A stretch of DNA of 64,000 nucleotides from an uncultured Planctomycetales bacterium (GTDB lineage: Bacteria; Omnitrophota; Gorgyraeia; Zapsychrales; JANLHA01): the NCBI GenBank assembly GCA_964489065.1, contig CAZAXH010000008.1, positions 64,130 through 128,129 of the forward strand, read 5' to 3'. Positions 5,163 through 42,124 of the stretch are shown here, piece after piece. Under the pieces are notes generated by a model that was not told the DNA's origin, searched no databases, and saw nothing but the letters and a program-made list of their open reading frames with translations. The position numbers and the translations under genes were made by a program. Position 1 is the stretch's first letter. The number at the start of each line of letters is the position of its first letter.

Positions 5163-5179
5163 ATCCCCCAATGGGGGAT
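5163..5179. terminator. Putative bidirectional hairpin terminator between convergent genes
   Basis: ATCCCCC-AAT-GGGGGAT forms a perfect 7-bp stem with a 3-nt loop. It is flanked by AATTTTT upstream and ATTTCTTCT downstream. It sits in the 21-nt gap between the 4606..5157 (+) and 5179..5934 (-) genes. Confidence 0.45.
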
Positions 5180-5934: not shown

Positions 5935-6150
5935 AACAGCAATCCTTTTTATGTTTTTGATACATTTTGGGTTCAAATTTTGGATTATTATAACATGGAA
6001 AAAGGAGGGGCGGTTCAAAAACATTATTATTTCTTTCCCTTAGGGATGCTTAAAGAATGTCTTAGTTCCATTATTGATATATTCATTTAAAATATTCATA
6101 ACTAGTTATTAGTGTTTGATTTAAAATAGTTCAAAATTAGAACTATTTCC

Positions 6151-6365: not shown

Positions 6366-7421
6366 ATGATAGAACATTCCAAACCGACATTGGGGCCGCG
6401 CGAGAGACAGGCGCTCCTGAAAACTCTGGCTTCCAATTATATTGCGGAAGGCCAGGAAGTGCATTGCTTTGAAAATGAGGTGGCCGCTTATATCGGTTCC
6501 CCGGGCGCTGTCGCAACGTCCACCGGAACTTTGGGGCTCCATCTCGCACTTCTTTGCCTTGATATGAAGCCAGGGGCCGAGATCATCATCCCAAGCTACA
6601 CTTGCCGCTCTGTTTTAAACGCGGTTTCCTACTGCCGGGCTAAACCGGTGGTATGTGACGTGGAGATAGAAAATTATAATTTGTCTTTTGCGGATGTAAA
6701 AAAAAAAATGACGGCTCGCACGCAAGCGATTATTGTGCCGCATATGTTCGGGTGTCCGGCGCCGATTGACCACTTTAAAACACTGGGGGTTCCTCTTATT
6801 GAAGACTGTGCGCACGCTTTGGGCACCGAATATAAAGGGCGGAAAGCGGGCTGTTGGGGCGATTTGGCCCTGCTTTCTTTTGAAGGTACAAAATATATTG
6901 TAACGGGGGAAGGGGGGATGGTCTTAGCCAACTCTGCCCGCATGCTCAAAAGGCTCCGCAAGTTGAAGGAGGGGGATTCTCCCGATCTTCCTGCGAAATA
7001 CACGTATCGTATGACGGATTTACAGGCCGCCGTGGGACGGGTTCAACTGAGCAGGCTGGAAGATTTTATTAAGAAACGCCGGAGCATCGCCCGGGTTTAT
7101 GATAAAGCCTTCGCATCTGTGACCGAAAGGCATCCGTTGGCGCACATTGACGGCCGCCATATTTACCAGCGTTACATGGTTCAGGTCCGGGGAAACATCC
7201 GTAAACTCATGGAAGATTGCCTTCGCCAGGGGATAAAAGTGAAGCAGCCGGTCAAACCTTATCCTCTGCACCGCTATCTGGGTCTTGCCGGAGGTTTATT
7301 CCCCAACACCGAGCGTATTATGCGTTCGGCGGTCTCTATCCCGATATATCCCTCGTTAACAAAAAAAGAGATTATGCATATAACACAAATACTGCCACCC
7401 TTATTCAAGCGCTATGCCTGA
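6366..7421 (+). CDS. DegT/DnrJ/EryC1/StrS-family PLP-dependent aminotransferase
   Basis: It has the typical N-terminus (KPTLGPRERQALLKTLASNYIAEGQEV..FE), a STGTLGLHLAL segment and the PLP-lysine context SFEGTKYIVTGEGG. Confidence 0.9.
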   Translation: MIEHSKPTLGPRERQALLKTLASNYIAEGQEVHCFENEVAAYIGSPGAVATSTGTLGLHLALLCLDMKPGAEIIIPSYTCRSVLNAVSYCRAKPVVCDVEIENYNLSFADVKKKMTARTQAIIVPHMFGCPAPIDHFKTLGVPLIEDCAHALGTEYKGRKAGCWGDLALLSFEGTKYIVTGEGGMVLANSARMLKRLRKLKEGDSPDLPAKYTYRMTDLQAAVGRVQLSRLEDFIKKRRSIARVYDKAFASVTERHPLAHIDGRHIYQRYMVQVRGNIRKLMEDCLRQGIKVKQPVKPYPLHRYLGLAGGLFPNTERIMRSAVSIPIYPSLTKKEIMHITQILPPLFKRYA

Positions 7422-8406
7422 TACTGAAAAAACAATTATCCCGGTTCCTGATTTGTCCCATGTTGACGCCGGCCCGTTCCCGCCCATGGTGGTTGTCGAA
7501 ATCACGAATGTCTGTAATCTGCAGTGCATCCACTGTCCGTTTTGCTATATATCAAAAGAGCCCGGGTATAAACCGTGCTATATGGCCTGGCCGCTTTATA
7601 AAAAGATCGTGGATGAGGTCGCCGGCCATCCCGGAACCATTTTTCGGCTTTTATGTGACGGAGAGCCCCTCTGCCATCCTCGGTTTATCGATATGGTCCG
7701 CTATGCTAAGACGCGGGGGGTAAGCCCGGTTAATTTTATCACCAACGGGCTTTTAATGGACGGGGCCCGGGCTGCGGCGGTGCTGGAAGCCGGAGTGGAG
7801 GCGGTTGAATTCAGCCTGGATGCGCTTAATAAGAACACATACGAGCGCATCCGGAAAGGTTCGAATTATGAAACGGTCATGCATCATGTCAAAGGCTTTA
7901 TCCGGCTGCGAGACACGTTAAAGGCTCCGACAAAAATTTTTGTCAGCATTATTGACCAGCCTGAAGCCGAAGCCGAGTTGGACGCTTTTGTCGCTTACTG
8001 GACCCCCCGTGTCGACCGGGTTATTACCCGGGCCTACACGTCCATACGGGGCCTTGTTGACCCGGCCAAGATCAAGACCGACCCGCAGATTAAACGCTGG
8101 CCCTGTCCTGACCTTTGGAGGCGTTCGTTTATCAATGTCGACGGTTTTGCCGAATTCTGCGTGGAAGATTGGCACGACCAATCCGTGGTCGGGGATATTA
8201 ACAAAACGACCCTTCAGGCCGTCTGGCAGGGTCCGGATTACGAACGGCTCCGGACCCTGCACAGGCAACGGAGGTTTCAGGAAATTCCTTATTGTGCGGG
8301 CTGTCTGGATTGGCGGGCCCGGGACTGGCATTATGATTATTTTTTGGCTTTGAGAGATACGTTAGGCTCAACGGCAGCCCCAGAGCGGCGGGAGGTGCGG
8401 CCATGA
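7414..8406 (+). CDS. Radical SAM enzyme with an abbreviated SPASM/twitch C-terminal domain
   Basis: The rSAM motif is ITNVCNLQCIHCPF (CxxxCxxC). The C-terminal part has CPDLWRRSFINVDGFAEFC (C-x12-G-x4-C) plus YCAGC. It overlaps both neighbours (7414/7421 and 8403/8406). Confidence 0.85.
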   Translation: MPDTEKTIIPVPDLSHVDAGPFPPMVVVEITNVCNLQCIHCPFCYISKEPGYKPCYMAWPLYKKIVDEVAGHPGTIFRLLCDGEPLCHPRFIDMVRYAKTRGVSPVNFITNGLLMDGARAAAVLEAGVEAVEFSLDALNKNTYERIRKGSNYETVMHHVKGFIRLRDTLKAPTKIFVSIIDQPEAEAELDAFVAYWTPRVDRVITRAYTSIRGLVDPAKIKTDPQIKRWPCPDLWRRSFINVDGFAEFCVEDWHDQSVVGDINKTTLQAVWQGPDYERLRTLHRQRRFQEIPYCAGCLDWRARDWHYDYFLALRDTLGSTAAPERREVRP

Positions 8407-9779
8407 CTTCACGGATTCTCCGAAAAACTCAAAGTGTCTGTCCCCGGTGTCTCGAGACCCTGGACACCTTTATCGTGGAAAAGAACGCAAAAATCGTTAT
8501 GAAAAAAACCTGCCCCCGGCATGGGCTGTTTGAAATCGTATTGTCTTCGACTCCGACTTACTACGCCGAACTCGAGGAGTATTATTTTTCCCTGGCGGAC
8601 ACTCGTTATGAAGTCCCGGAATATGAATTTTGGCCAACCTACCGGTGCAACGCTGACTGCACGATCTGCTGTTTCGGGCGGCAGAATTGGGAGATGGCGG
8701 GGCAGGACGCCTCGACGGGCGAAATTGAAAAACTGGCTAAAAACAGCAAGAAGCGTTTTTTTATTATTTCCGGGGGTGACCCGACCTGCCGGGATGACCT
8801 GGGTGATATTATAAGGACTTTTCGTAAACACGGGAAAGTCGTGACGATCAATACCAACGGCTTAAAATGCGCGGATTTAAACTACCTGAAGAAGTTGAAA
8901 AAGGCGGGCCTGGATCGACTGAATTTGCAATTTGACGGGTTTGACCCCAGATATTATCTGGCTCTGCGGCGTCAGGATTACCTGGACATCAAGCTGAAAG
9001 TTCTTGAAAACCTGCAGACTTTGGGGATTCAGACGACATTCAACGCGACCATCGCCCGGAATCTTAATGAAGGAGCGATCAAGGAATTAATGGATTTCGC
9101 CTCTTCGCACCCTTTTATCAACGGCGTTAATTTCTTTTCCATCTGTTTTCTGGGAGGGGCGAGGGACTGGGAACAAAGTTCATACATCATGCCGGATGAA
9201 ATCATTGACCTGCTCATCAGCCAAATAAGACCCGTTATTTCTAAAAAGAATGTTTTTGTTTTTCAAAAACTTCATCTGGCGGTCAAGTCGTTCCTGGCTC
9301 AGAAATGGTGCTTTTATAATCAGGTCTATCTTTTTGTCCGCAGAAACGGCTCTTTCGAGCCGATTGACCGCTTTCTCAACCTCGCTAAAGCCGAACCTTG
9401 GCTGGACCGTTACAGGGACAACTTCAAGACCAAGCCCTTCTGGGCGCGCGCCTGTCTGGGGATAGCCGTGGGGTGTCTCTTCCTGAAAAAAGAGTCCGTT
9501 ATTATTTTAAAGGAGATCCTTTTGAGGAGCGTGTCCTATTTTCTGAAGACGCGCCATTATCTTCGCGGCAGCCGGTTTTTCTCCGTGAGCTTTTCAACCG
9601 GCTGTGATCCTTATAAATTTGATTTTAACATTGTGAAACATTGCCAGAATGAAATCATCGCGGCCCGGGACCAGGACGGCGTGTTGACTCACTTAGGGAG
9701 CGACGGCCTGTATTGCATGGGGCTGGAGAAACGGTATTTGAGAAATAAACTCCAGAAAGAGGGGATGAGTTCTCGTTGA
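8403..9779 (+). CDS. Radical SAM protein with an N-terminal zinc-ribbon/rubredoxin-like knuckle (subtype A)
   Basis: The N-terminus is SVCPRCL-x19-CPRHG. The rSAM motif is YRCNADCTICCF, followed by SGGDPT. The conserved C-terminal Cys triad is WCFYNQ, CDPYKFD and HCQNEII, and there is a hydrophobic segment FWARACLGIAVGCLFL. Confidence 0.85.
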   Translation: MTSRILRKTQSVCPRCLETLDTFIVEKNAKIVMKKTCPRHGLFEIVLSSTPTYYAELEEYYFSLADTRYEVPEYEFWPTYRCNADCTICCFGRQNWEMAGQDASTGEIEKLAKNSKKRFFIISGGDPTCRDDLGDIIRTFRKHGKVVTINTNGLKCADLNYLKKLKKAGLDRLNLQFDGFDPRYYLALRRQDYLDIKLKVLENLQTLGIQTTFNATIARNLNEGAIKELMDFASSHPFINGVNFFSICFLGGARDWEQSSYIMPDEIIDLLISQIRPVISKKNVFVFQKLHLAVKSFLAQKWCFYNQVYLFVRRNGSFEPIDRFLNLAKAEPWLDRYRDNFKTKPFWARACLGIAVGCLFLKKESVIILKEILLRSVSYFLKTRHYLRGSRFFSVSFSTGCDPYKFDFNIVKHCQNEIIAARDQDGVLTHLGSDGLYCMGLEKRYLRNKLQKEGMSSR

Positions 9780-9780
9780 T

Positions 9781-11052
9781 ATGATGAAAGCCTACCCCCG
9801 ACATTCCGTTGACATTACCTGGCGCGATTACAAGCGCATGGTTTCGTTTTTCTTCACATCCCCGGCCCGGAGGAAAGAATTCCTTCCGGAATTCGAACAA
9901 CGCTTTGCGGAATATACCGGCACCCGCTTCGCCCTGTCCGTGCCGTCCGCCCGGGTGGGGCTTTATGCGATCCTGCAGTATTTTAATTTCCCTAAAGGGG
10001 CCGAAGTTATCATCACCCCGTTCACGCACCAGAGTATTTTTACGGTCCTGAAGACGTTCCGGCTTAAGCCGGTTTTCGTCGATATCGATGAAAAGACGCA
10101 CAATATCGACCCGCACCTGGTCAGGAAATCGGTTTCGGAGAAAACCCGTCTGCTGATTTTAACTCATATGTGGGGGCAGCCCTGCGACATGGCCGCGTTC
10201 ACCGCCTTGAAAAAAGAGTACGATCTGAAAATTATTGAAGATTGCGCCATGGCCGCCGGCGCGACTTACCAGGGGCGGAAAGTGGGGAGTTTCGTCGATG
10301 CCAGCATATTCAGCTTCGGGAAAGCTAAGGCCATTTGCGCTTTCGGCGGCGGGATGCTGTGCTGCCATGACGCCTCCATGAAGGATTTTATCTCCGGCCT
10401 GATCCGGGATTTTAAGCCCTCCCGGAGCCTGCCGCTGGCGGTTTCCGTCATTAATTCCGTGATCGCCAATATCCTGACCCGGCCCCGCTTTTTTTTCTTC
10501 TCCCTTTATCCGGTGATGCGGCTTTTCAACCTGCGGGATCCCTACAATCCGGTTGAACATAAAAAAGACTCCGAAGTCATCCTGGAGCAGATGCCGGAAG
10601 AATGGAAAGTCAAAATGTCGCCGTTTCAGGCCGCCCTGGGGCTGGAACAGCTCCGGAGCCTGGACGCCCGTAACCAGGCCCGGGCCCGTAACGCGCAGCT
10701 TTTGAACTTTTTGTTGGAGGGGACGCCGGGGATCAGTGTGCCCCGGCCGCAACCCGGAGGTAATCATATTTATCTTTACTACGCGGTTCATATACAGAAC
10801 GCCGCTTCTCTGGACGCCCTTAGGTTGAGCTTGCTGAAGCGTTCGGTCGACACGCAATTAAATGAGTTGACGACTCCCCGGCAGCTGCGTGTTTTCGGGG
10901 CGGACAGCCGGACGGTCCCTGTTTTTGAAACCATATCCGCGAATATCCTTGTCATCCCCAACGGGATTTATTTAAATGACCGGGATATCCGGCTTGTGGC
11001 GGAGGCGTTAAAACAGAGCCTGAGGTCCCTTCCGGGGAAGGGGGATGCATGA
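9781..11052 (+). CDS. DegT-like PLP aminotransferase-fold protein (long subtype with a hydrophobic insert)
   Basis: It has a DegT-like layout (ALSVPSARVGLYAIL, IEDCAMAAGATYQGRKVG, FSFGKAKAICAFGGG). A hydrophobic insertion (LPLAVSVINSVIANILTRPRFFFFSLYPVMRLF) follows the lysine motif. Confidence 0.75.
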   Translation: MMKAYPRHSVDITWRDYKRMVSFFFTSPARRKEFLPEFEQRFAEYTGTRFALSVPSARVGLYAILQYFNFPKGAEVIITPFTHQSIFTVLKTFRLKPVFVDIDEKTHNIDPHLVRKSVSEKTRLLILTHMWGQPCDMAAFTALKKEYDLKIIEDCAMAAGATYQGRKVGSFVDASIFSFGKAKAICAFGGGMLCCHDASMKDFISGLIRDFKPSRSLPLAVSVINSVIANILTRPRFFFFSLYPVMRLFNLRDPYNPVEHKKDSEVILEQMPEEWKVKMSPFQAALGLEQLRSLDARNQARARNAQLLNFLLEGTPGISVPRPQPGGNHIYLYYAVHIQNAASLDALRLSLLKRSVDTQLNELTTPRQLRVFGADSRTVPVFETISANILVIPNGIYLNDRDIRLVAEALKQSLRSLPGKGDA

Positions 11053-12431
11053 AAACGGCCCGGCCATCCCGCTCGATATTACGGACAACGGAAAGCGTCT
11101 GCCCGAAATGTTCCGCGCCCCTGCCCGCCAGTATTGTCGCGGATGAAAAAGGCGTGTTTATGGAGAAACGCTGCCCGCAGCATGGAGATTTTCGCGTGCG
11201 CCTGTCCGAAACCCCGGCCTTGTACGCCGAACTGGACGGGTTTTACTGTTCCCTGATGGGGCGGGCGCAACCTTGTTTTGATTATGAAATCTGGCCCACC
11301 CTGCGGTGCAATATGAATTGCGCGATATGTTTTTTCGGCTGTCCGCGGGAATCTTCCCGGGTTTTTGAGCCGACGCTCAACGCCATCGAACAGTTCGTCA
11401 GCCGGGACCCGCACCCGTTTTACTGCCTCTCCGGAGCGGAAGCGACTGTCCGGGATGATTTGCCGGATATCATCCGTATTTTAAAAAAGCACCGGAAAGT
11501 CGTGACGTTGAACACTAACGGAATGCGTTTCGAGGATGAATCTTATCTGTTAAAACTGAAGAACGCCGGGCTGGACCGGGTTATTTTGCAATGCGATGGT
11601 TTTGATCCCCGTGTTTCCCTGAAGATGAGGGGAGAGGATGCTGTCCCCCAACGGCAGCGTGTCTTGGCCCTCTTGGAAAAGCATCATATGCCGACCGCGC
11701 TCAGTTCCACGATCGCCCGGGGCCTCAACGAACATACGGTTTCGGAATTGCTGGATTACGCGCTGGCGCATCCTTTCATCAACGGGATCGCGTTTCTGTC
11801 CATCGCCTTTGACGGCGGGGCCCGGAACTGGAGCCAGGAGCGCTACATGATGCCGGATGAAGTGATCGACGTTGTCTGCCGTGTCCCCGGCTATAACGTA
11901 AAAAAAGAAAACGTGCACAGATTTCAAAAGCTGCATTTCGCCGTCAAGGCGTTCTTGAAGCAGCGCGCGTGTTTATATAATCAGCTTTATGTCCTGGTGC
12001 GCCGGCGGGGTTCCTTTGAGCCTATTGACGCTTTCATGAATCTCGCTAAAGCCGAGCCCTGGCTGGACCGTTACCGGCACGCTTACGCGGGGAAGAAACA
12101 CGGCCTGGCCGCTCTTTATCTGGGGCTGGCTTTGCTATGCCTGTGCTGCCATCGCCGGATTTTAGTCCTGTTCCGGGACCTTCTCGGCTCGGGGGTGTCT
12201 TATTTCTTCCGGACGTCACGATATCTAAGAACAGGCCGACTGCTTGCTTTAAGTTTTACGACCAGCTGCGACCCGTATAAGCTCGACAAGACAATCCTCC
12301 AGAATTGTCAGAATGAAATTATGGCCGCGGATCAAACACCGGACTCTTTACGCCCTATCGGAAGGGAAGGCGCCTATTTCGTGAACCTGGAAAAACATTA
12401 CGCTGAATCTCAACCCCGGGGGGAACCATGA
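11049..12431 (+). CDS. Radical SAM protein with an N-terminal zinc-ribbon knuckle (subtype A)
   Basis: It has SVCPKCS-x19-CPQHG, LRCNMNCAICFF, KAEPWLDRYR, CDPYKLD and NCQNEIM, plus the hydrophobic segment LAALYLGLALLCLCC. ATGA overlaps occur at both ends. Confidence 0.85.
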   Translation: MKTARPSRSILRTTESVCPKCSAPLPASIVADEKGVFMEKRCPQHGDFRVRLSETPALYAELDGFYCSLMGRAQPCFDYEIWPTLRCNMNCAICFFGCPRESSRVFEPTLNAIEQFVSRDPHPFYCLSGAEATVRDDLPDIIRILKKHRKVVTLNTNGMRFEDESYLLKLKNAGLDRVILQCDGFDPRVSLKMRGEDAVPQRQRVLALLEKHHMPTALSSTIARGLNEHTVSELLDYALAHPFINGIAFLSIAFDGGARNWSQERYMMPDEVIDVVCRVPGYNVKKENVHRFQKLHFAVKAFLKQRACLYNQLYVLVRRRGSFEPIDAFMNLAKAEPWLDRYRHAYAGKKHGLAALYLGLALLCLCCHRRILVLFRDLLGSGVSYFFRTSRYLRTGRLLALSFTTSCDPYKLDKTILQNCQNEIMAADQTPDSLRPIGREGAYFVNLEKHYAESQPRGEP

Positions 12432-28640: not shown

Positions 28641-28680
28641 ACTCTGTTTTGTGCCTTTGTTAAGAGAGGAAAAAGGTTTT

Positions 28681-30291
28681 ATGCAGACCAATAAAGTGAT
28701 GGCCGCTTATTTAAAATACCGTTTTTTTCTCTTGCCGTTATTATTCATCGAGATTATACGCAATCCTTTTTATAAAAATTTTGTCGATTCCTCGGATTCC
28801 ATCCGCGAATTTTTTAAATACATTTTTTTGAAGTCAGCGCTCCTTAATAACATCACGGATAACGCTGTCGTCCTGATAAACGGCCAACTCCATCTGTTAT
28901 CCGGGTCCATCATCTCAATCCTGTTTTATGGGACGGTCGTTGTCGCGGTCAACGGCGTGGTTTGGTATCGCCAAAGCCGCGCGCCCGGAAGGCCTTCAGC
29001 GGCCATTTTCCCGCATTTAATTTGGACGGCCGTATTTTGTTTCGCCATTAAATCTTTCCCGCCGCTTACGGCTGTTACCTTAACATCCCTGCTGGGCTTT
29101 GTCTACATAGCGGATTTTGTGTTTTTTAACAACGATTCGTTTTTTTTAACCCGTATAAAAAGATCCTTCTTCTTTATATTCTCGCTGGCTGCCGTTTTTC
29201 TCGCAGAGTGGCTCTGCTTTCCTTTATACATAAAGTTTCTATATTTTCTTCAGGATAAAAAAATTACGCCTGCGAAAGCCCAGCTCATCCAATGGGGGCA
29301 TTATTCCCTCTTTGTTTTTTTTACCCTCCTCATGGTTTCTCCATTGAAGAATCCGTCTATCATTGACATGCAGCTTTTGCAGAAAGGCCGTTATTTCGAC
29401 CTGCAATATTATGAAAAAGGCGACGCCCTGATCGTCCTGAATGACTTTGAAGGGCAAGTGGAACGGATATCCGTGAAACATATGGCACCCCCGGCTGTGC
29501 TTTACAAATCCCGGATGTCAAGCGGGACAGAAGATTCGATGGGAGACTGGCTGGCCGTCAATAACGAAACACAGGAGCTGTATTTTACAGACCGCAGTTT
29601 TCATGAATTGATGATCCTGGATTTGACGACCCATGCCATCAAAAAGACCCTGTCATCGGAGATCTTTAACGCTGGGGACAATTTTATCACGTCCCTGAAT
29701 CACCACATTTATGGGATCACGGAAGAGGGGGCCTGTATTTATAAAATTGACCCGGAGAATGTTTCTCCCGTTGACAGCATGCTGAACTTTTGCATTCGGG
29801 AAGGAGAGGGGTCCATGCTCGTCCCGAATCCCCGGCTTAATGTTTTATACGCGACAAACTGGAATGAGCCCTCATCAAAATTTTTTATTTATAAAATTGA
29901 TGCCGACACTTTGGCCGTTCTGGGCCGGTTCCCCTTAAGCTCACCGGGGATCGTGATGGTTTCCGAAGATGGGGAACGGTTGCACTGCGGCGTCAGCACA
30001 GGGCCGGTGAATATTTTCACGATCGACGCCAGGAGCCTGCGACTGGTGGACCGCTTTCTGATTCCATACGGAACGGAAAACGGGGCCCTGGACAAAAAGC
30101 GGGAACTGTTGTTTGCCGCCAATCATTTCACCAACATTGTTGAAGTCATTGATCTGAAGACCAAAAAGACGGTTCAGTATTTTCGAGCCGGGGATGGGCG
30201 GTCTTACATCCGCAGGATCATTGTCGACGCCTCTAACAAACGGTTTTTTGTCACGGTTTTTAACGAAGGCATTTACGTGGGGGCCTATTAA
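28681..30291 (+). CDS. Polytopic membrane protein with a C-terminal beta-propeller (YVTN/YncE-like repeats)
   Basis: The ATG at 28681 is preceded by GAGAGGAAAAAGG; the track start at 28609 overlaps the upstream gene. The N-terminal half has several hydrophobic helices. The C-terminal half has repeated strand patterns (LYFTDRSFHELMILDLTTH, VLYATNW..FIYKIDADTL, VNIFTIDARSLRLV, NIVEVIDLKTKKTV, RFFVTVFNEGIYV). Confidence 0.6.
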   Translation: MQTNKVMAAYLKYRFFLLPLLFIEIIRNPFYKNFVDSSDSIREFFKYIFLKSALLNNITDNAVVLINGQLHLLSGSIISILFYGTVVVAVNGVVWYRQSRAPGRPSAAIFPHLIWTAVFCFAIKSFPPLTAVTLTSLLGFVYIADFVFFNNDSFFLTRIKRSFFFIFSLAAVFLAEWLCFPLYIKFLYFLQDKKITPAKAQLIQWGHYSLFVFFTLLMVSPLKNPSIIDMQLLQKGRYFDLQYYEKGDALIVLNDFEGQVERISVKHMAPPAVLYKSRMSSGTEDSMGDWLAVNNETQELYFTDRSFHELMILDLTTHAIKKTLSSEIFNAGDNFITSLNHHIYGITEEGACIYKIDPENVSPVDSMLNFCIREGEGSMLVPNPRLNVLYATNWNEPSSKFFIYKIDADTLAVLGRFPLSSPGIVMVSEDGERLHCGVSTGPVNIFTIDARSLRLVDRFLIPYGTENGALDKKRELLFAANHFTNIVEVIDLKTKKTVQYFRAGDGRSYIRRIIVDASNKRFFVTVFNEGIYVGAY

Positions 30292-30304
30292 CACAAAAAC
30301 TCAT

Positions 30305-31366
30305 ATGAGGACTCCCAAACATAATATTCTACGCACGATTCTGATGCTGCTCATCCCCGGGGCCGCCACCGCGGCTGTGTTATACCTCATTTTCAGGAAT
30401 CTTGATTTCAAGGTTCTGTTGATATCCCTCAAAAATTCCGACTATAGATTTCTCACGCTCGCTTTAGGGGTTTCCCTCACATGGAATATCGGTCTTTTCG
30501 GTCTACTCCGGAAAATAATCTGGCAATATATGGGATATGTTATTTCCCTGAAAGAATGCCTGTTTGTTCGGGCCGGGAGCCTGCCTTTTCAGGCGATCCC
30601 GTCTTTTAAGGACACAGGCTTAGCCATGGCGCTGTATTTAAAAAATTACCGCCATATGCCTTTAAGTGAAGGCATATTATCAAATATCATCGTTAATCTT
30701 TTTAGTCTGGTGGGCCTGTTTTTTTTAATTATACTGGGCTACTTGTTTTACAGACCCGGATTCCCAGAGGGAGGAGACCTCTTCCCTCATCTAACGGCCA
30801 GGATCGTGCCTGTCGTTCTGTTCCTTGGGTTCATTGCGTACGCCTTTTATTTTAACCAGGCCTTGGGGAAACGGATTCTTTTTTACGCTTGCTTCAAGAA
30901 AAAGACCCCTTTATTTAATATTTTTGAAAAAAATATTGATCTGTGGAAAATCCTTCCCAAACATAAAATTATCATTTTCTTTCTATTGACGACAATATAC
31001 AAACTGGCGGAAGTGCTTCTTTTTTGCGCGCTGGCGCAATCTTACCAACTTAGAGTCCCGCTGTCAGCCATTTTGCTGTATGTGCCTCTGGCCATGATGA
31101 TCAGTGAATCCCCGGCCAATATCAGCGGGATCGGGGTGAGGGAAGGAGCCCTGATTTTGTTTTTTTACAATTTCGCGCCCAAAGAAATTTTAGTCTCCGT
31201 GGCCGTTCTAATTTTTATTATAAACAGGATCGTGCCGATCATGGTCGGGTTCTTTTTCCTGGCCCCTTTCCTCTCCCGAACCCAGCTATCCTTTGCTAAA
31301 ATATGGGAACAGGTGCGGTTCATCTCAGGCGGAGGGCCGAAAAACTCTCCGGAGGCGTTATGCTGA
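30305..31366 (+). CDS. Flippase-like / LPG-synthase-TM (UPF0104) family integral membrane protein
   Basis: The N-terminus (LLIPGAATAAVLYLIFRNLDFKVLLISLKNSDYRFLTLALGVSL) and the late motif (PANISGIGVREGALILFF) are typical of this family. The start at 30305 was chosen to avoid overlap with the upstream gene. Confidence 0.7.
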   Translation: MRTPKHNILRTILMLLIPGAATAAVLYLIFRNLDFKVLLISLKNSDYRFLTLALGVSLTWNIGLFGLLRKIIWQYMGYVISLKECLFVRAGSLPFQAIPSFKDTGLAMALYLKNYRHMPLSEGILSNIIVNLFSLVGLFFLIILGYLFYRPGFPEGGDLFPHLTARIVPVVLFLGFIAYAFYFNQALGKRILFYACFKKKTPLFNIFEKNIDLWKILPKHKIIIFFLLTTIYKLAEVLLFCALAQSYQLRVPLSAILLYVPLAMMISESPANISGIGVREGALILFFYNFAPKEILVSVAVLIFIINRIVPIMVGFFFLAPFLSRTQLSFAKIWEQVRFISGGGPKNSPEALC

Positions 31367-32076
31367 ATACCAGTATTTCCTTGGTTGTCCCTGTTTATAA
31401 TGAAGCGGAAATCATCGCCGACACGTTGGCGGCCTTTACCCGGGAACTATCGGGTGTCTGCAGGGATTTTGAAATTATCGTTGTGGATGACGGGAGCACG
31501 GATGACACCGCGGCCATATTACGCCGGATTTCAGAAAATAACGCGCGTATCAAAGTTGTCTATAACCCGGTCAATGAAGGGAGCGGAGCCAGCGTCTGGA
31601 AAGGGTTCAAGAGCGCCGGCAAAGAACTGATCATCAGTAATTTCGCGGACCGCCCTTTTGCCCTTTCGGATTTAGAGGGGGTTATCCGGGCGGCCGACCT
31701 GAACAGCGCTGATTTTATCGTCGTGGTCAGACAGGACCGGAGCGCCAACACGGGCTATAGGAAAATAACGTCCCTGACGAATTACTGGCTTATCCGATTC
31801 CTGTTTAAGGTGAAGATATCTGATTTCCAGTTTGTCCAGGTCTATAAACGCCCGGTCATTCAGGGCATCCCTATCCGTTCCCGGGAGACGTTTGTCCCGC
31901 CAGAACTGATGATCAGGCTTCTGGACAAAGGCTTTCAGTATCGGGAAGTCATCCGGCCGTTTCATAAAAGACCGGGAGGGCAGTCGAAATGCGGCCGCCC
32001 GGGGAAAGTGTTGAGAAGTATGCTGGAAATCTTTAACTTTTGGATATATTGGGTCATCCTCAAAAAGCGAGATTGA
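31360..32076 (+). CDS. GT2-family polyprenyl-phosphate glycosyltransferase (DPM1/ArnC/CsbB-like)
   Basis: The ATG at 31360 follows a GGAGG RBS. It has SLVVPVYNEAEII, IIVVDDGSTDDT and a small soluble size, typical of polyprenol-P sugar synthases. It overlaps the upstream stop. Confidence 0.85.
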   Translation: MLNTSISLVVPVYNEAEIIADTLAAFTRELSGVCRDFEIIVVDDGSTDDTAAILRRISENNARIKVVYNPVNEGSGASVWKGFKSAGKELIISNFADRPFALSDLEGVIRAADLNSADFIVVVRQDRSANTGYRKITSLTNYWLIRFLFKVKISDFQFVQVYKRPVIQGIPIRSRETFVPPELMIRLLDKGFQYREVIRPFHKRPGGQSKCGRPGKVLRSMLEIFNFWIYWVILKKRD

Positions 32077-39369: not shown

Positions 39370-40875
39370 ATGAAGTTATCTCTGATTTTCAATCCCTTCT
39401 CCTATAAGGCGCACGAAGAAAATCTTAAAATCGTCCAGAAATATTTCGGCCTATTTCCCCCTTTAAGTCTGGCCTGGGTGGCCGCCATCGCGGAAAAGTC
39501 CGGGCATCAGGTCCAGCTAATCGACGCCCGGACTTTAAAACTCTCCATGGAAGAGACTTTTCAACAGGTCCGGGCTTTTAATCCGGACATTATGGGATTT
39601 ATGATGACGACCTATATGTTTCAGGACACGTTGTCCTGGATCAAATTCTTAAAAGCCCGTATCTCCGTCCCGGTCGTGGTGGGAGGATATAATCTCCGGG
39701 TGTACCCCAGAGAGTCTTTGTCTCATCCGGAAATAGATTTCGGCGTGGTCGAGCACGCTTACTACACCATCCCGCGTCTTCTGGAAGAACTGGAGAGCGG
39801 TCGTCATGATTTCACCACAGTGCCCGGCCTGGTTTATAAAAAAAACGGATTAGTTCTAGTCACTCCGCACCCGCAAAAAATCAACTTTAACGATTTCCCC
39901 AACCCGGCGAGGCACCTTTTGCCGAATCATCTTTACGCCGAATTCCCGACCGAACGGAGGAACTTCACGGTGATGGTGACGTCCCTGGGATGCCCTTACG
40001 GCTGTACCTTTTGTGAAGCGGGGCGTACGCCGTATAATCCCCGTTCTCCGGAAAAAGTCGTGGCGGAAATGGAGGAATGTTATTTGCATTACGGGATCAG
40101 GGAAATTGACATTTTTGATTATGAATTCACGGGAATCCGTGACCGGGTTATGAAAATCTGCCAGATGATTAAGGAAAAAAAATGGGACATGATCTGGGCC
40201 TGCCGGTCCCGCATTGACACCGTTGACGCGGAATTGCTCTCTGAAATGAAACAGGCCGGCTGCCGGAGGATATATTTCGGGCTGGAATCAGGGCGGCAGG
40301 ACATCCTGGACAGTGTCCACAAAGGATATTCCCTGAAACAAGTCCGGGACATTATTGCCGCCTGCTCCTCTCTGGGAATCCGGACCCTGGGGTTCTTTCT
40401 GGTCGGCGCGCCGGGTGACACGAGGGAAACGGTTAAAGAAACGGTCGCGTTCGCCAAAAAACTCAACTTGGATTATGTGCAGTTTTCCAAATGCCTAGCC
40501 AAACCTTTAACCCCACTCTGGAAAGACATGGTCGTCCAGGAGCAGAAAGACTACTGGGGCGACTGGGTTCTGGGAACGGAAACAGACCGGGAGTTGCCCC
40601 GCCCCTGGACCGAATTGACAAACCAGGAGGTTGATCAGCTGGCCCGATGGGCCTATATTTCGTATTACGCGCGGCCTTCCTTTTTATGGAAGCATTTGCT
40701 GAAAATCGGCTCATTCCTGGAACTGAAACGCAAGGTGCTTGCGCTTATCGATATGTTATGGAAACAGGAACCCTATTCGCGGCCGGAAAAGGATTTTAAG
40801 GCTTTTAACGAGAATCCGGCAGCCCGGGTCCGGAACTATCAGGCGGCCCCAAAACACACGGCCCCGCAAAGGTGA
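39370..40875 (+). CDS. B12-binding (class B) radical SAM enzyme, second subfamily
   Basis: It has FPPLSLAWVAAIAEKSGHQVQLID (B12 domain), VVGGYNLRVYP, SLGCPYGCTFC and GLESG. An AGGGGG RBS lies upstream. Confidence 0.9.
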   Translation: MKLSLIFNPFSYKAHEENLKIVQKYFGLFPPLSLAWVAAIAEKSGHQVQLIDARTLKLSMEETFQQVRAFNPDIMGFMMTTYMFQDTLSWIKFLKARISVPVVVGGYNLRVYPRESLSHPEIDFGVVEHAYYTIPRLLEELESGRHDFTTVPGLVYKKNGLVLVTPHPQKINFNDFPNPARHLLPNHLYAEFPTERRNFTVMVTSLGCPYGCTFCEAGRTPYNPRSPEKVVAEMEECYLHYGIREIDIFDYEFTGIRDRVMKICQMIKEKKWDMIWACRSRIDTVDAELLSEMKQAGCRRIYFGLESGRQDILDSVHKGYSLKQVRDIIAACSSLGIRTLGFFLVGAPGDTRETVKETVAFAKKLNLDYVQFSKCLAKPLTPLWKDMVVQEQKDYWGDWVLGTETDRELPRPWTELTNQEVDQLARWAYISYYARPSFLWKHLLKIGSFLELKRKVLALIDMLWKQEPYSRPEKDFKAFNENPAARVRNYQAAPKHTAPQR

Positions 40876-40879
40876 CGAT

Positions 40880-42124
40880 ATGATTTTTAAACCGATCCCC
40901 CGGCAAAAATCCTGCAACACTTTTCGCGACCTCTGGCGTGTTTTCTGCCTCCTTGCAACAAAACGTTTCTGGCAGGGGGAAGAAACACGAGAATTTGAAA
41001 CTCTCTTCGCCGAAAAATATGGCATGAAATACGCTCTGGCCACGGGGTCCTGCCGCTCTGCTTTCGCGCTTCTTCTTGATGCGCTGGAGATCAAAAGCGG
41101 GGATGAAGTCATTTTACCGGCTTATAACATGCCGGCTTTCCCGAAAATATTAAAATGCAAGGGGATCCAACCGGTTTTTATCGATATTAATGAAAATACC
41201 CTGAATATGGATGAACGCCTGATTGGACCCAAAATCAGCTCGAGAACCAAAGCCATCGTCGCGGTTCATCTTTTCGGGAACGCCTGCCCTATGGACGAAA
41301 TCCTGTCCCTAGCCCGCAAACATAACCTATATGTCATTGAGGATTGCGCCAACGCGTGGGGAGCGTGTTTCCGATCCCGGTATGTCGGCACTTTTGGGGA
41401 CGCGGCCTGTTTCAGCCTTGGGGCCACAAAAGACATCCCGACTTTCGGCGGCGGGATGATTTTGACAAACAACCAAACCCTCTTTGACAAACTGGCTTGT
41501 ATTTATGAACAACAAACGAGTTGTCCCTCTTGGGGGAATGTCCTGATAGACCTCGCCAGGAACATGATAATGTTACTGATGGGCTTCGGCCCTTTCTACA
41601 GCCTGCTGGTTTTTCCTGTCCAGTTCCTTTGTTCCCGGGCCGGGTTTGACCTGATGGATTATCTCATCGAGGAAAAAGACCGTCCTCTGACGGCTGTCCC
41701 GCAAAAAAAATATGTTAATTTTCAAGCTGTCGTGGGCCTGCATCAATTCAAGCCCGGAGAACAAAACCAGCAGCGGAGGATATGGAACGCCCGGATTCTC
41801 AACGCCCGGCTGCGCGATATCCCGGAGGTCCATATCCCGCAAACAGCGCCGGAGGGAGATCACACATACTGGAATTACCCGCTCCTCGTTCCCCGACGCG
41901 GGCTTTTAGTCACAAGGTTGCTCAAACACGGGATCAGCACAAAAATTCTGGATACTTATAACTGTAATCAATTAAAAACTTTTAGTGATTTCCGGCAAGA
42001 CTGCCCCCGGGCAGACCGGATCGCGAACACAGTCCTGATTTTGCCGGTATACCATCATTTGCACGAAACCGAAATGAATTTCATCGCGGAAACCATAAAA
42101 AAAGAATGCCAGTGTCTCGTTTAA
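40880..42124 (+). CDS. DegT-like PLP aminotransferase-fold protein (long subtype with a hydrophobic insert)
   Basis: The ATG at 40880 follows AAAGGTGA; the track start at 40739 overlaps the upstream gene. It has ATGSCRSAFALLL, IEDCANAWGACFRSRYVG and FSLGATKDIPTFGGG. The hydrophobic insert is ARNMIMLLMGFGPFYSLLVFPVQFLCSRAGF. Confidence 0.78.
   Translation: MIFKPIPRQKSCNTFRDLWRVFCLLATKRFWQGEETREFETLFAEKYGMKYALATGSCRSAFALLLDALEIKSGDEVILPAYNMPAFPKILKCKGIQPVFIDINENTLNMDERLIGPKISSRTKAIVAVHLFGNACPMDEILSLARKHNLYVIEDCANAWGACFRSRYVGTFGDAACFSLGATKDIPTFGGGMILTNNQTLFDKLACIYEQQTSCPSWGNVLIDLARNMIMLLMGFGPFYSLLVFPVQFLCSRAGFDLMDYLIEEKDRPLTAVPQKKYVNFQAVVGLHQFKPGEQNQQRRIWNARILNARLRDIPEVHIPQTAPEGDHTYWNYPLLVPRRGLLVTRLLKHGISTKILDTYNCNQLKTFSDFRQDCPRADRIANTVLILPVYHHLHETEMNFIAETIKKECQCLV

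What the first reader, a model, noticed from the sequence alone, without database searches (positions are those of the whole stretch)
10425..10530. Two of the three DegT-like proteins carry a hydrophobic insertion after the PLP-lysine motif
The proteins at 9781..11052 and 40880..42124 are 414-423 aa, whereas the canonical copy at 6366 is 351 aa. After the lysine motif (FSFGKAKAICAFGGG and FSLGATKDIPTFGGG) each has an extra segment of about 35-40 aa rich in aliphatic and aromatic residues. The segments are LPLAVSVINSVIANILTRPRFFFFSLYPVMRLF (about 10425-10530) and ARNMIMLLMGFGPFYSLLVFPVQFLCSRAGF (about 41540-41650). Both proteins also replace the usual GEGG with FGGG. This defines a distinct subfamily, which may be a membrane-docking loop for a lipidic ketone acceptor or a non-aminotransferase use of the fold.
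Basis: seen in the sequence. Interest (0 to 1): 0.5.

Follow-up and report, generated by a model that had tools for sequence, protein, structure and literature searches.

The report
DegT aminotransferase clade with helical-hairpin insert
Two of the three sugar-aminotransferase-like genes in this Omnitrophota window belong to a rare, uncharacterised branch of the family. In this branch the flexible loop that normally grips the nucleotide-sugar is replaced by a conserved 74-residue helical module, and the genes sit next to radical SAM enzymes and lipid-flippase or glycosyltransferase genes, which suggests an amination step on a non-nucleotide, possibly lipid-linked, substrate.

Summary
ORFs 9781-11052 (B) and 40880-42124 (C) are DegT/DnrJ/EryC1 PLP enzymes with about 50-55 extra residues after the Schiff-base lysine. 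The lysine-to-QAA spacing is 99-101 residues, against 45 in the canonical copy at 6366.

The module marks one clade, found in Omnitrophota, Acidobacteriota, Planctomycetota, Desulfobacterota, Patescibacteria and archaea. It comes with coordinated active-site changes: Thr to Arg58 in 62/63, loss of the GEGG glutamate in 54/63, and loss of the aromatic residue at K-3. Asp154 and Lys183 are invariant.

Genomic context is distinctive. A radical SAM gene lies within 2.5 kb in 45/69 insert-bearing loci and 0/15 others, and one DegT::rSAM fusion exists. PMT_2, LPG_synthase_TM or DedA genes occur in 34/68 insert-bearing loci.

My best reading is an aminotransferase for a non-nucleotide, probably lipid-linked, carbonyl that the partner enzyme generates. 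Membrane docking is plausible but unproven.

The parts
9781..11052 (+). DegT-family PLP enzyme B (423 aa), a member of the insert-bearing clade
10405..10626 (+). Inserted module of B (residues 209-282). It consists of helix 216-232, the turn T233-R234-P235, helices 235-240 and 242-249, and the conserved polar stretch DPYNPxEHKKD (250-265, pLDDT about 67). It rejoins the family fold near the WKVKM stretch that stands in place of the family's N-x-R motif.
   Evidence: Single-residue beta bridges at 212 and 277 in the DSSP string are consistent with a closed excursion (their pairing with each other is my inference). No PDB chain aligns to it.
10429..10527 (+). It is the two-helix hairpin of the module.
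   Evidence: for coordinates. for helix limits and conservation: L219, L232, T233, P235, F238, Y243, P244 and R247 are conserved over 63 sequences.
10309..10353 (+). Lysine motif FSFGKAKAICAFGGG of B. K183 is the Schiff-base lysine, and F188-G189 replace the G-E of GEGG.
   Evidence: K183 aligns with the PLP lysine of solved enzymes. It is invariant in 79 sequences. One search gives the residue counts.
9946..9954 (+). S56-A57-R58 in place of the family's S-G-T. Arg58 replaces the threonine that binds the PLP phosphate.
   Evidence: R in 62/63 clade members against T in 16/16 others. The role of the threonine is taken from PMC5936713.
40880..42124 (+). DegT-family PLP enzyme C (414 aa), a second and more hydrophobic lineage of the insert-bearing clade
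   Evidence: PF01041 at 250 bits in two stretches. About 18 orthologs at 37-72% identity. Members of its 90% cluster are named Candidatus Omnitrophota. AF2 pLDDT 97.0, pTM 0.95.
41507..41722 (+). Inserted module of C (residues 210-281), with helices 218-234, 237-253 and 258-263
6366..7421 (+). Canonical DegT copy A (351 aa), used as the internal control. It has no insert and keeps SGT and GEGG.
   Evidence: One continuous PF01041 stretch at 270 bits. Lys-to-Q spacing is 45.
8403..9779 (+). Tes/HMPTM-like radical SAM gene immediately upstream of B (stop at 9779, B starts at 9781)
   Evidence: PF23545 plus PF04055. Sub-threshold NCBIfam hits to TrsS and the tetraether synthase Tes. The synteny is kept in a 3.36 Mb Omnitrophota genome.
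11049..12431 (+). Tes/HMPTM-like radical SAM gene immediately downstream of B, overlapping it by 4 nt
39370..40875 (+). B12-binding radical SAM gene immediately upstream of C
   Evidence: PF02310 plus PF04055. The best NCBIfam hit is HpnJ at 1e-46, below its cut-off. The order rSAM then DegT(insert) recurs in many phyla.
42134..43612 (+). Radical SAM gene (BchE/HpnJ-like) immediately downstream of C
30194..32076 (+). LPG_synthase_TM (flippase-like) gene followed by a GT2 gene whose best sub-threshold hit is ArnC. Together they are a candidate pair for making and handling a polyprenyl-phosphate sugar in the same cluster.
44621..45982 (+). PMT_2 (GT-C, ArnT/Agl23-like) membrane glycosyltransferase in the same cluster
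   Evidence: PMT_2 genes recur next to insert-bearing DegT genes elsewhere.

Best explanation
B and C belong to a single, previously uncharacterised clade of the DegT/DnrJ/EryC1 fold-type-I PLP family.

Shown:
- The catalytic core for PLP chemistry is intact: Schiff-base Lys183, Asp154 to the pyridine nitrogen, Ser178 and His129.
- The substrate-recognition apparatus has been rebuilt. The short flexible loop that lies 36-49 residues after the lysine in nucleotide-sugar aminotransferases is replaced by a rigid 72-74 residue helical module: a two-helix hairpin with a conserved T-(R/K)-P...F....Y-P..R signature, followed by a polar stretch specific to each subclade. In canonical enzymes that loop orders on ligand binding and contacts the NDP diphosphate and the 2-oxoglutarate carboxylate.
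- Pocket residues change with it. The phosphate-binding Thr becomes Arg, the GEGG Glu is lost, and the aromatic residue three positions before the lysine becomes Gly.

Inferred:
- The enzyme is still a transaminase, but for a carbonyl substrate that carries no nucleotide.
- That carbonyl is generated by the adjacent radical SAM enzyme (alcohol or diol to ketone), or by an alcohol dehydrogenase where the radical SAM gene is absent.
- The substrate is an anionic, hydrophobic molecule such as a polyprenyl-phosphate-linked or other lipid-linked sugar or polyol.
- The aromatic, basic, acid-poor hairpin forms the hydrophobic entrance or the interfacial contact for that substrate.
- The aminated product is then flipped (LPG_synthase_TM or DedA) and transferred (PMT_2), in an Arn-like logic.

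For: The insert as a conserved module:
- Lys-to-Q spacing is 99-101 against 45-51.
- It aligns almost without gaps over 26 diverse members.
- Conserved positions are L219, L232, T233, P235, F238 (92%), Y243 (86%) and P244 (87%).
- The insert-only profile finds 121 representatives in 1.84 billion. In the full-length hits it lies at about residues 205-285, and 109 of 115 new hits extend into DegT sequence outside the insert.

Single clade.

Coordinated substitutions with Lys and Asp retained.

Role of the replaced loop, the Thr and the Glu in canonical enzymes: PMC5936713.

Partnership with radical SAM enzymes:
- A radical SAM gene lies within 2.5 kb in 45/69 insert-bearing loci and 0/15 non-insert loci from the same scan.
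- Translationally coupled rSAM-DegT pairs occur.
- One DegT(insert)::rSAM fusion of 737 aa exists.
- Synteny is conserved in another Omnitrophota genome.
- The partner radical SAM genes give sub-threshold best hits to HpnJ, which acts on a hopanoid-linked sugar, and to the AprD4 diol dehydratase, which makes a ketone.
- In L011 the radical SAM gene is absent and an Fe-ADH_2 gene follows the DegT gene.

Lipid or membrane context:
- Acidobacteriota have a module rSAM - DegT(insert) - DedA/VTT.
- Other loci have PMT_2 - LPG_synthase_TM - [rSAM] - DegT(insert).
- In Patescibacteria the gene sits between a Mur ligase and FemAB, with PMT_2 genes nearby.
- One of these three membrane partners is present in 34/68 insert-bearing loci and 0/15 others.
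- The window itself has an ArnC-like GT2, an LPG_synthase_TM gene and a PMT_2 gene.

Hairpin composition over 82 sequences: FWY 17.0% against 9.3% in the rest of the protein, D+E 3.7% against 10.9%, K+R 11.9% against 13.6%.
Against: - No substrate, activity or localisation is shown. Everything beyond 'conserved module replacing the substrate loop' is inferred from context.
- The hairpin is not transmembrane grade. An approximate Hessa-type ΔG is above +7.5 kcal/mol for B and +2.8 for C, against 0.3 or less for real TM helices in the same window (the scale values were recalled from memory).
- Helix 1 is charged in many clade members. Identity-level conservation of F238, Y243 and P244 fits a packed structural element as well as it fits a lipid contact.
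- Patescibacterial members keep the module but have no radical SAM neighbour, so a radical SAM partner is not universal. There the substrate could equally be a soluble cell-wall precursor.
- The loci are phylogenetically related and were selected by similarity to B, so the context counts are not independent samples.
- All NCBIfam hits for the partner genes are below their curated cut-offs.
Confidence: 0.55

Rival explanations
1. The insert is purely architectural. The hairpin enlarges the dimer (or higher oligomer) interface, or acts as a fixed lid. The enzymes are still ordinary nucleotide-sugar aminotransferases that feed the glycosyltransferases in the cluster.
For: The canonical loop lies at the subunit interface, where both subunits build the active sites (PMC5936713). 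Hydrophobic helices with identity-level conservation and very high pLDDT and pTM are typical of packed interface elements. Hydrophobicity is in the range of buried helices of soluble proteins in this window. GT2 and sugar-nucleotide enzymes occur in some contexts.
Against: The module removes the region that binds the NDP diphosphate. It comes with loss of the Thr and Glu, the latter described as conserved in all sugar aminotransferases, and of the aromatic residue at K-3. No NCBIfam sugar-aminotransferase equivalog is reached (134-175 bits against cut-offs of 375-650). The minimal Acidobacterial module has no nucleotide-sugar genes. An architectural role does not explain the clade-specific association with radical SAM, DedA and LPG_synthase_TM genes.
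Confidence: 0.2
2. The hairpin is a docking platform for the partner radical SAM enzyme. It allows a reactive carbonyl or amine intermediate to be passed directly between the two active sites, whether the substrate is soluble or lipidic.
For: Tight adjacency and overlapping stop/start codons of rSAM and DegT(insert) genes in many phyla. A natural DegT(insert)::rSAM fusion exists. Counts are 45/69 against 0/15.
Against: Twelve Patescibacterial or unclassified loci keep a module of the same length with no radical SAM gene nearby. The partners belong to different radical SAM classes (Tes/HMPTM-like for B, B12-binding for C and for Acidobacteriota, SPASM elsewhere), which is hard to reconcile with one conserved docking surface.
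Confidence: 0.12
3. The fold is used for something other than transamination. Examples are a PMP/PLP-dependent dehydratase, deaminase, epimerase or C-C chemistry that works with the radical enzyme, following the DesI/DesII or E1/ColD precedents.
For: The pocket is heavily remodelled. B's best NCBIfam hit is DesI, the aminotransferase that prepares the substrate of the radical SAM deaminase DesII (the DesI/DesII relationship is from general knowledge). Family members ColD and E1 are dehydratases and appear among the structural matches.
Against: The family's dehydratases ColD and E1 carry His in place of the Schiff-base Lys (general knowledge; the E1 entry 3bb8 in the match list is titled as an H220K mutant), whereas Lys183 is invariant here. 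The DesI hit is far below its cut-off (141 against 650 bits). No feature specific to another reaction type was found.
Confidence: 0.1
4. The insert is a transmembrane or re-entrant anchor that makes B and C integral membrane proteins.
For: C's segment MIMLLMGFGPFYSLLVFPV reaches a Kyte-Doolittle mean of 1.9. Two helices of about 17 residues could span one leaflet.
Against: Approximate ΔG of insertion is positive (+2.8 for C, above +7.5 for B) while true TM helices of neighbouring genes score 0.3 or less. A conserved Thr-Arg-Pro and further Arg residues sit at the hairpin tip. Helix 1 carries Lys, Glu and Arg in many members. pTM of 0.93-0.95 suggests the hairpin is fixed against the globular body (this reading of pTM is my inference).
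Confidence: 0.03

Closest known systems
Nucleotide-sugar aminotransferases of the DegT/DnrJ/EryC1/StrS family (PseC, ArnB, GDP-perosamine synthase, DesV, WecE, Spr1654)
   Different: A 72-74 residue helical module stands in place of the roughly 14-residue flexible loop that binds substrate and 2-oxoglutarate. SGT becomes S(A/G)R, GEGG becomes FGGG, and the aromatic residue at K-3 becomes Gly. No equivalog cut-off is reached. About 74 residues have no structural counterpart.
The Arn pathway (ArnB aminotransferase, ArnC GT2, ArnE/F flippase, ArnT GT-C)
   Same: The same cast of protein types recurs around the insert-bearing genes: a DegT enzyme, an ArnC-like GT2, a flippase-like membrane protein and a PMT_2/ArnT-like GT-C. 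The logic would be to make an aminated sugar on a polyprenyl carrier, flip it and then transfer it.
   Different: ArnB acts on a UDP-sugar and has the canonical loop. Here the NDP-binding loop is gone and a radical SAM enzyme stands where an NAD-dependent oxidase or dehydratase would be. The order of steps (amination before or after lipid loading) is unknown. All the family hits for these partners are sub-threshold.
Pairs of a radical or metal-dependent oxidase with a DegT aminotransferase: BtrN/BtrS(R) in butirosin, KdnB/KdnA for Kdo8N, and DesI/DesII in desosamine biosynthesis
   Same: A DegT-family enzyme works next to a radical SAM or Fe-ADH enzyme that makes or consumes its carbonyl or amine substrate. 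BtrR, KdnA and DesI are among the structural matches. The Fe-ADH_2 gene in L011 mirrors KdnB. What these pathways do is taken from general knowledge.
   Different: Those aminotransferases lack the module. The partner radical SAM enzymes here are B12-binding (HpnJ/AprD4/BchE-like) or Tes/HMPTM-like, not BtrN or DesII types.
HpnJ / HpnL (hopanoid side-chain modification)
   Same: The radical SAM partners give HpnJ as best hit. One clade member lies in the order LPG_synthase_TM - B12 rSAM - DegT(insert) - DUF116 - squalene-hopene cyclase, with an HpnH-type radical SAM gene about 3.7 kb further on. HpnJ acts on a lipid-anchored aminosugar (PMC12324291).
   Different: HpnJ scores are far below the cut-off (103-160 against 578 bits). 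The known hopanoid aminotransferase HpnO belongs to a different PLP class (IPR005814). Only one of the loci I examined in detail shows hopanoid genes.

Membership tests
DegT/DnrJ/EryC1/StrS family (PF01041), fold-type I PLP enzymes | Significant match to the family profile above the curated threshold | tested here: met
   B scores 223.4 bits and C 250 bits against a cut-off of 19.8. Each hit is split in two stretches by the insert.
DegT/DnrJ/EryC1/StrS family (PF01041), fold-type I PLP enzymes | Fold-type I architecture (large PLP domain plus C-terminal domain) superposable on solved members | tested here: met
DegT/DnrJ/EryC1/StrS family (PF01041), fold-type I PLP enzymes | Schiff-base lysine, and aspartate to the pyridine nitrogen | tested here: met
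   K183 and D154 are invariant in 79 sequences, and S178 and H129 are kept. The lysine aligns with the PLP lysine of 7b0d, 7n63 and 3frk.
Nucleotide-sugar aminotransferases (SAT functional class: ArnB, PseC, Per, Spr1654 and others) | Short flexible loop 36-49 residues after the lysine, which orders on ligand binding and contacts the NDP diphosphate and the 2-oxoglutarate carboxylate | tested here: not met
   It is replaced by a 72-74 residue helical module. The role of the loop is from PMC5936713.
Nucleotide-sugar aminotransferases (SAT functional class: ArnB, PseC, Per, Spr1654 and others) | Glu of the GEGG motif, stated to be 'conserved among all SATs' | tested here: not met
   Gly in B and C, and in 54/63 clade members, against E/D in 16/16 others. 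The statement is from PMC5936713.
Nucleotide-sugar aminotransferases (SAT functional class: ArnB, PseC, Per, Spr1654 and others) | Thr of the S-G-T motif, which hydrogen-bonds the PLP phosphate | tested here: not met
   Arg in 62/63 clade members against Thr in 16/16 others.
Nucleotide-sugar aminotransferases (SAT functional class: ArnB, PseC, Per, Spr1654 and others) | Reaches the curated score of a characterised equivalog (DesI, PseC, ArnB, WecE, LegC, RfbH) | tested here: not met
   The best hit for B is DesI at 141 bits against a cut-off of 650. The best for C is PRK11706 at 174.5 against 375.
Nucleotide-sugar aminotransferases (SAT functional class: ArnB, PseC, Per, Spr1654 and others) | Glu/Gln-dependent transamination of an NDP-keto-sugar | not testable with these tools
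   This needs an enzyme assay.
Integral or monotopic membrane proteins | A segment hydrophobic enough for bilayer insertion | tested here: not met
   Approximate Hessa-type ΔG is +2.8 kcal/mol for C and above +7.5 for B, against 0.3 or less for TM helices of the LPG_synthase_TM and PMT_2 genes in the window (the scale values were recalled from memory).
Peripheral (interfacial) membrane-binding enzymes | A surface-exposed patch that is aromatic, basic and poor in acidic residues, on a face compatible with the dimer symmetry | tested here: inconclusive
   The composition fits (FWY 17.0% against 9.3%, D+E 3.7% against 10.9%, K+R 11.9%).
Arn-like pathways for lipid-linked aminosugars | Co-occurrence with a polyprenyl-phosphate GT2, a flippase and a GT-C transferase | tested here: inconclusive
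   The window has an ArnC-like GT2, an LPG_synthase_TM gene and a PMT_2 gene. PMT_2, LPG_synthase_TM or DedA genes are in 34/68 insert-bearing loci against 0/15 others. All the assignments are sub-threshold, and the Acidobacterial module lacks a GT2.

The most novel reading that the evidence does not exclude
The insert-bearing DegT clade is a nucleotide-independent aminotransferase that works at the membrane face. A radical SAM enzyme (or an Fe-ADH) converts a hydroxyl or vicinal diol of a polyprenyl-phosphate-linked or other lipid-linked sugar or polyol into a ketone. The DegT enzyme holds the lipid phosphate with its Arg58-containing pocket and its aromatic, basic hairpin, and aminates the ketone. 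A DedA or LPG_synthase_TM protein then flips the cationic product, and a PMT_2 GT-C enzyme transfers it. This would be an anaerobic route to aminated envelope lipids and glycans with no NDP-sugar intermediate. It would be shared by Omnitrophota, Acidobacteriota, Desulfobacterota and Planctomycetota, with a radical-SAM-free variant in Patescibacteria.
Probability: 0.3. Interest if true: 0.75.

Novelty: new variant of a known kind. Interest (0 to 1): 0.55.

Why it matters
Sugar aminotransferases of this family are well studied, and every solved member uses the same short flexible loop for its substrate. Three features of this clade together flag an amination reaction that current annotation hides under names such as 'perosamine synthetase' or 'DegT family aminotransferase':
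- the loop is swapped for a rigid helical module;
- the PLP-phosphate pocket is re-charged;
- the genes sit beside radical SAM enzymes, lipid flippase-like proteins and GT-C transferases in at least six phyla.

The compact Acidobacterial module (rSAM - DegT - DedA) and the Patescibacterial Mur ligase - DegT - FemAB arrangement are small enough to test by heterologous expression. They could reveal new envelope lipid or peptidoglycan modifications in groups that are abundant and mostly uncultured. The clade signature gives a simple rule for re-annotation: Lys-to-QAA spacing of about 100, S-x-R, FGGG, and T(R/K)P..F....YP.

Tried and rejected
- Transmembrane anchor: rejected on hydrophobicity and on the conserved Arg residues at the hairpin tip.
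- Repeated independent insertions: unlikely, because the clade holds together without the insert columns. That test is rough: NJ with Kimura distances, and a numerical warning for the most divergent pairs.
- The module occurring in other proteins: not seen. 109 of 115 new hits of the insert-only profile extend into DegT sequence outside the insert, and the other six are short fragments.
- Foldseek against AFDB50: the library was not available.
- Literature searches: nothing describes this clade or its gene module. The Omnitrophota, GDGT and hopanoid papers I checked do not mention it.
- Contact prediction by covariation: not attempted, because about 200 sequences is too few.
- A first NJ run using Biopython BLOSUM distances timed out.
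- My early reading of FGGG as a one-residue deletion of G(D/E)GG was wrong for the main alignment. It is a substitution with the same length.
Full report
**1. The observation**

The window carries three ORFs of the DegT/DnrJ/EryC1 family: A at 6366-7421 (351 aa), B at 9781-11052 (423 aa) and C at 40880-42124 (414 aa). The ORF lister begins C at TTG 40739, but ATG 40880 fits the orthologs. A matches PF01041 as one stretch. B and C match in two stretches that break near profile position 200.

Against solved enzymes the break is explicit. B residue 204 aligns to residue 235 of 7b0d, and B residue 279 aligns to residue 258. C behaves the same way.

I measured the distance from the Schiff-base lysine to the Q of the QAA helix. 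It is 101 residues in B, 99 in C and 45 in A. It is 49-51 in canonical homologues and 57-72 in a few intermediate ones. The two quoted hydrophobic strings are exactly where stated (nt 10429-10527 and 41555-41647). They form the centre of a larger module: B 209-282 (nt 10405-10626) and C 210-281 (nt 41507-41722). FGGG in place of GEGG is also correct.

**2. What the insert is**

It is a conserved module, not a variable loop.
- B has about 50 orthologs at 53-77% identity. All those with a name are from Omnitrophica/Omnitrophota.
- C has about 18 orthologs, and members of its 90% cluster are named Candidatus Omnitrophota.
- More distant proteins at 27-36% identity carry a module of the same length. 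Twenty-six diverse modules align almost without gaps at 67-75 residues.
- Over 63 sequences the conserved positions are L219, L232, T233, P235, F238 (92%), Y243 (86%), P244 (87%), R247 and P272. The signature is L-T-(R/K)-P-x-x-F-x-x-x-x-Y-P-x-x-R.
- B orthologs add a strongly conserved polar stretch, DPYNPxEHKKD.

AlphaFold2 models built with these alignments are confident: B has pLDDT 94.6 and pTM 0.93, C has 97.0 and 0.95. Both fold the module as two antiparallel helices of about 17 residues, then a short helix. The polar stretch of B is the only softer region, at a pLDDT of about 67. Single-residue beta bridges at 212 and 277 in the DSSP string are consistent with a closed excursion from one point of the fold; that they pair with each other is my inference.

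No solved structure has a counterpart.
- Foldseek TM-scores normalised to the query do not exceed 0.76.
- Phmmer of the insert region against all PDB sequences matches only the QAA helix.

A profile of the module alone, run against 1.84 billion representatives, finds 121 proteins at E ≤ 0.001. In the full-length hits the module lies at about residues 205-285. Of the 115 new hits, 109 extend into DegT sequence outside the insert and the other six are short fragments.

With the insert columns removed, an NJ tree still separates all 63 insert-bearing sequences from the 16 others, and 33 of 50 bootstraps give a clean split. This is a rough test. It points to a single origin.

**3. What it replaces, and what changes with it**

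In nucleotide-sugar aminotransferases, the stretch 36-49 residues after the lysine is a flexible region. According to the Spr1654 study (PMC5936713):
- its sequence is not conserved;
- it orders when ligand binds;
- it supplies the basic residue for the 2-oxoglutarate carboxylate (Arg229 in ArnB);
- it lies by the NDP diphosphate, at a cleft built by both subunits.

The module stands exactly there.

The same paper describes the Thr of S-G-T as a ligand of the PLP phosphate. It describes the Glu of GEGG as conserved in all sugar aminotransferases, where it positions pocket residues.

In the insert clade:

| Position | Insert clade | Others |
|---|---|---|
| Thr of S-G-T | Arg in 62/63 | Thr in 16/16 |
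| Glu of GEGG | Gly in 54/63 | Glu/Asp in 16/16 |
| Residue at K-3 | Gly in 49/63 | Tyr/Phe in 14/16 |

Asp154, Lys183, Glu153, Ser178 and His129 are kept.

The PLP chemistry is therefore preserved while substrate recognition is rebuilt, with a shift towards positive charge near the phosphate site. No NCBIfam equivalog for a known sugar aminotransferase is approached.

**4. Is it a membrane element?**

It is not a transmembrane one.
- With an approximate biological hydrophobicity scale (values recalled from memory), the best 19-residue window of C's insert scores +2.8 kcal/mol. B's insert is above +7.5.
- Buried helices of soluble proteins in this window score about +3.
- True TM helices of the LPG_synthase_TM and PMT_2 genes score -1.7 to +0.3.
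- The hairpin tip carries the conserved Thr-Arg-Pro, and helix 1 is charged in many members.

Across 82 clade members, however, the hairpin has a distinctive composition:
- aromatic residues are enriched (17.0% against 9.3% in the rest of the protein);
- acidic residues are depleted (3.7% against 10.9%);
- basic residues stay near average (11.9% against 13.6%).

This is the composition expected of an interfacial surface or one that binds an anionic ligand. I had no model coordinates, so exposure and orientation remain untested.

**5. Genomic context**

*The window.* In the window, B and C sit in a plus-strand cluster of about 45 kb (6.3-51 kb). It holds about 20 radical SAM genes. These comprise six Tes/HMPTM-like units (one ORF is a tandem double), about twelve B12-binding ones, two SPASM/twitch-type ones and one with a UPF0004 N-terminal domain. 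The cluster also holds an LPG_synthase_TM gene, a GT2 whose best sub-threshold hit is ArnC, WbqC, a YfhO-like protein, PMT_2, an asparagine-synthase-type amidotransferase and a methyltransferase. B is flanked by Tes/HMPTM-like radical SAM genes. C is flanked by B12-type ones. The arrangement around B is conserved in a 3.36 Mb Omnitrophota genome.

*Radical SAM partners elsewhere.* I took 80 loci from a scan of one genome per species, plus loci fetched by protein identity. A radical SAM gene lies within 2.5 kb of the DegT gene in 45 of 69 insert-bearing loci. It does so in none of 15 loci with a normal-length loop. One metagenomic protein is a DegT(insert)::radical SAM fusion of 737 aa.

*Acidobacteriota.* In Acidobacteriota the unit is compact. 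A radical SAM gene of about 465 aa comes first; its sub-threshold best hits are HpnJ, the AprD4 diol dehydratase and BchE. The DegT(insert) gene follows, then a DedA/VTT-domain membrane protein. The stops and starts overlap. A small secreted FG-GAP-like protein is often encoded just upstream.

*Desulfobacteraceae and others.* Desulfobacteraceae MAGs have the order PMT_2 - LPG_synthase_TM - [B12 rSAM] - DegT(insert). In the locus that lacks the radical SAM gene, an Fe-ADH_2 gene follows. One unnamed contig has LPG_synthase_TM - B12 rSAM - DegT(insert) - DUF116 - squalene-hopene cyclase, with an HpnH-type gene about 3.7 kb further on.

*Patescibacteria.* These loci have no radical SAM gene nearby. 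Instead they have a fixed arrangement: SerRS - α/β hydrolase - Mur ligase - DegT(insert) - FemAB - FtsQ, with PMT_2 genes opposite.

*Membrane partners overall.* A PMT_2, LPG_synthase_TM or DedA homologue is found within the flanks of 34 of 68 insert-bearing loci and 0 of 15 others.

*Caveat.* These loci are related to each other and were chosen by similarity to B, so the counts are descriptive and not independent tests.

**6. Mechanism proposed**

Shown: a PLP enzyme of the DegT fold with an intact catalytic core, a rebuilt substrate site, and a conserved link to radical SAM and membrane-lipid-handling genes.

Inferred:
- It still transaminates.
- Its substrate has no nucleotide handle.
- The carbonyl is made by the neighbouring radical SAM enzyme. 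Precedents for such pairs are BtrN/BtrS, AprD4 and KdnB/KdnA, all from general knowledge.
- The substrate is anionic and hydrophobic, such as a polyprenyl-phosphate-linked or lipid-linked sugar or polyol. The hairpin and Arg58 would provide the binding surface.
- The product is then flipped and transferred, as in the Arn pathway.

I give about 0.85 to the statement that this is a distinct clade with a structured replacement of the substrate loop. I give about 0.6 to a functional partnership with the radical SAM enzymes, and about 0.3 to the lipid-linked substrate.

The rivals are a purely architectural or dimer-interface role, a docking surface for the radical SAM partner, a reaction other than transamination, and a transmembrane anchor. 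I reject the last.

**7. Comparison and novelty**

The proteins are members of PF01041. They fail three features that characterise the nucleotide-sugar aminotransferase class: the flexible loop, the GEGG Glu and the SGT Thr. They should therefore not be annotated as perosamine synthetase or as WecE/ArnB-like.

I found no paper that describes the clade or its gene modules. I rate it a new variant of a known kind, of moderate interest. It would be of higher interest if the lipid-linked amination route is confirmed.

Noticed in passing
window 6366-51000 (+ strand): A very large, co-directional cluster with about 20 radical SAM genes (Tes/HMPTM-like, B12-binding, SPASM/twitch-type and one with a UPF0004 domain). 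It also contains LPG_synthase_TM, GT2, WbqC, YfhO-like, PMT_2, asparagine-synthase-type amidotransferase and methyltransferase genes. An ABC-2 transporter and an RND efflux system follow it. No product is known. The B12 radical SAM genes give sub-threshold hits to the 'ladderane' lipid rSAM family TIGR04072, so genome-mining tools may label the cluster ladderane-like.
   Followed up: partly
window 12428-15184 (+): A single 918-aa ORF that is a tandem fusion of two complete Tes/HMPTM-like radical SAM units. It has two Zn-ribbon_HMPTM matches and two Radical_SAM matches.
   Followed up: no
L003 7724-9937 (JGI 3300033150, Ga0366835_1000167); also P0331: A natural fusion of an insert-bearing DegT domain with a radical SAM domain (737 aa). 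It is followed directly by a second insert-bearing DegT gene and three radical SAM genes, and PMT_2 genes flank the group.
   Followed up: partly
L016-L070 (Acidobacteriota loci), e.g. L028 4499-7709: A compact, translationally coupled module recurs in Vicinamibacterales, Pyrinomonadaceae, Bryobacteraceae and Terriglobia MAGs, in otherwise unrelated surroundings. It consists of a B12-like radical SAM gene (about 465 aa), the DegT(insert) gene and a DedA/VTT membrane protein (about 185 aa). A small secreted FG-GAP-like protein is often encoded upstream.
   Followed up: partly
L002, L061, L064, L072, L077, L083 (Patescibacteria), e.g. L064 2359-9284: In Saccharibacteria and other Patescibacteria the insert-bearing DegT gene sits in a fixed cell-wall or division context. 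The order is SerRS - α/β hydrolase - Mur ligase (M and C domains) - DegT(insert) - FemAB - FtsQ. This is roughly where ddl lies in classical dcw clusters. Two PMT_2 genes lie on the opposite strand.
   Followed up: partly
window 40739-40880: The mechanical ORF for C starts at TTG 40739 and overlaps the end of the upstream radical SAM gene by 137 nt. ATG 40880 lies 5 nt after that gene's stop and matches the N-termini of the orthologs, so it is the likely start.
   Followed up: yes
window 5179-6024 (-): A 281-aa protein with no Pfam match, encoded divergently from the cluster. It has a lipoprotein-like N-terminus (…LAVGLLVGC) and internally repeated segments of the type '…G.W…I.EG…Y.GY…'.
   Followed up: no
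window 6366-8406 (+): The canonical DegT copy A overlaps by 8 nt the start of a SPASM/twitch-type radical SAM gene (7414-8406). The ordinary family member in this cluster is therefore also paired with a radical SAM enzyme, and the same pair is kept in L007/L008.
   Followed up: partly
window 28609-31366 (+): The ORF 28609-30291 (560 aa, GTG start, no family match) overlaps the LPG_synthase_TM ORF (30194-31366) by about 100 nt. That ORF in turn overlaps the GT2 ORF (31303-32076) by about 60 nt. One or more of these starts is probably mis-set by the mechanical ORF caller.
   Followed up: no
window 34766-37674 (-): Two minus-strand genes interrupt the plus-strand cluster. One is a PaaK/F390-synthetase-like adenylate-forming ligase (34766-36262). 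The other is a divergent radical SAM gene (36259-37674). A HEAT-repeat protein follows at 37979-39181 (+).
   Followed up: no
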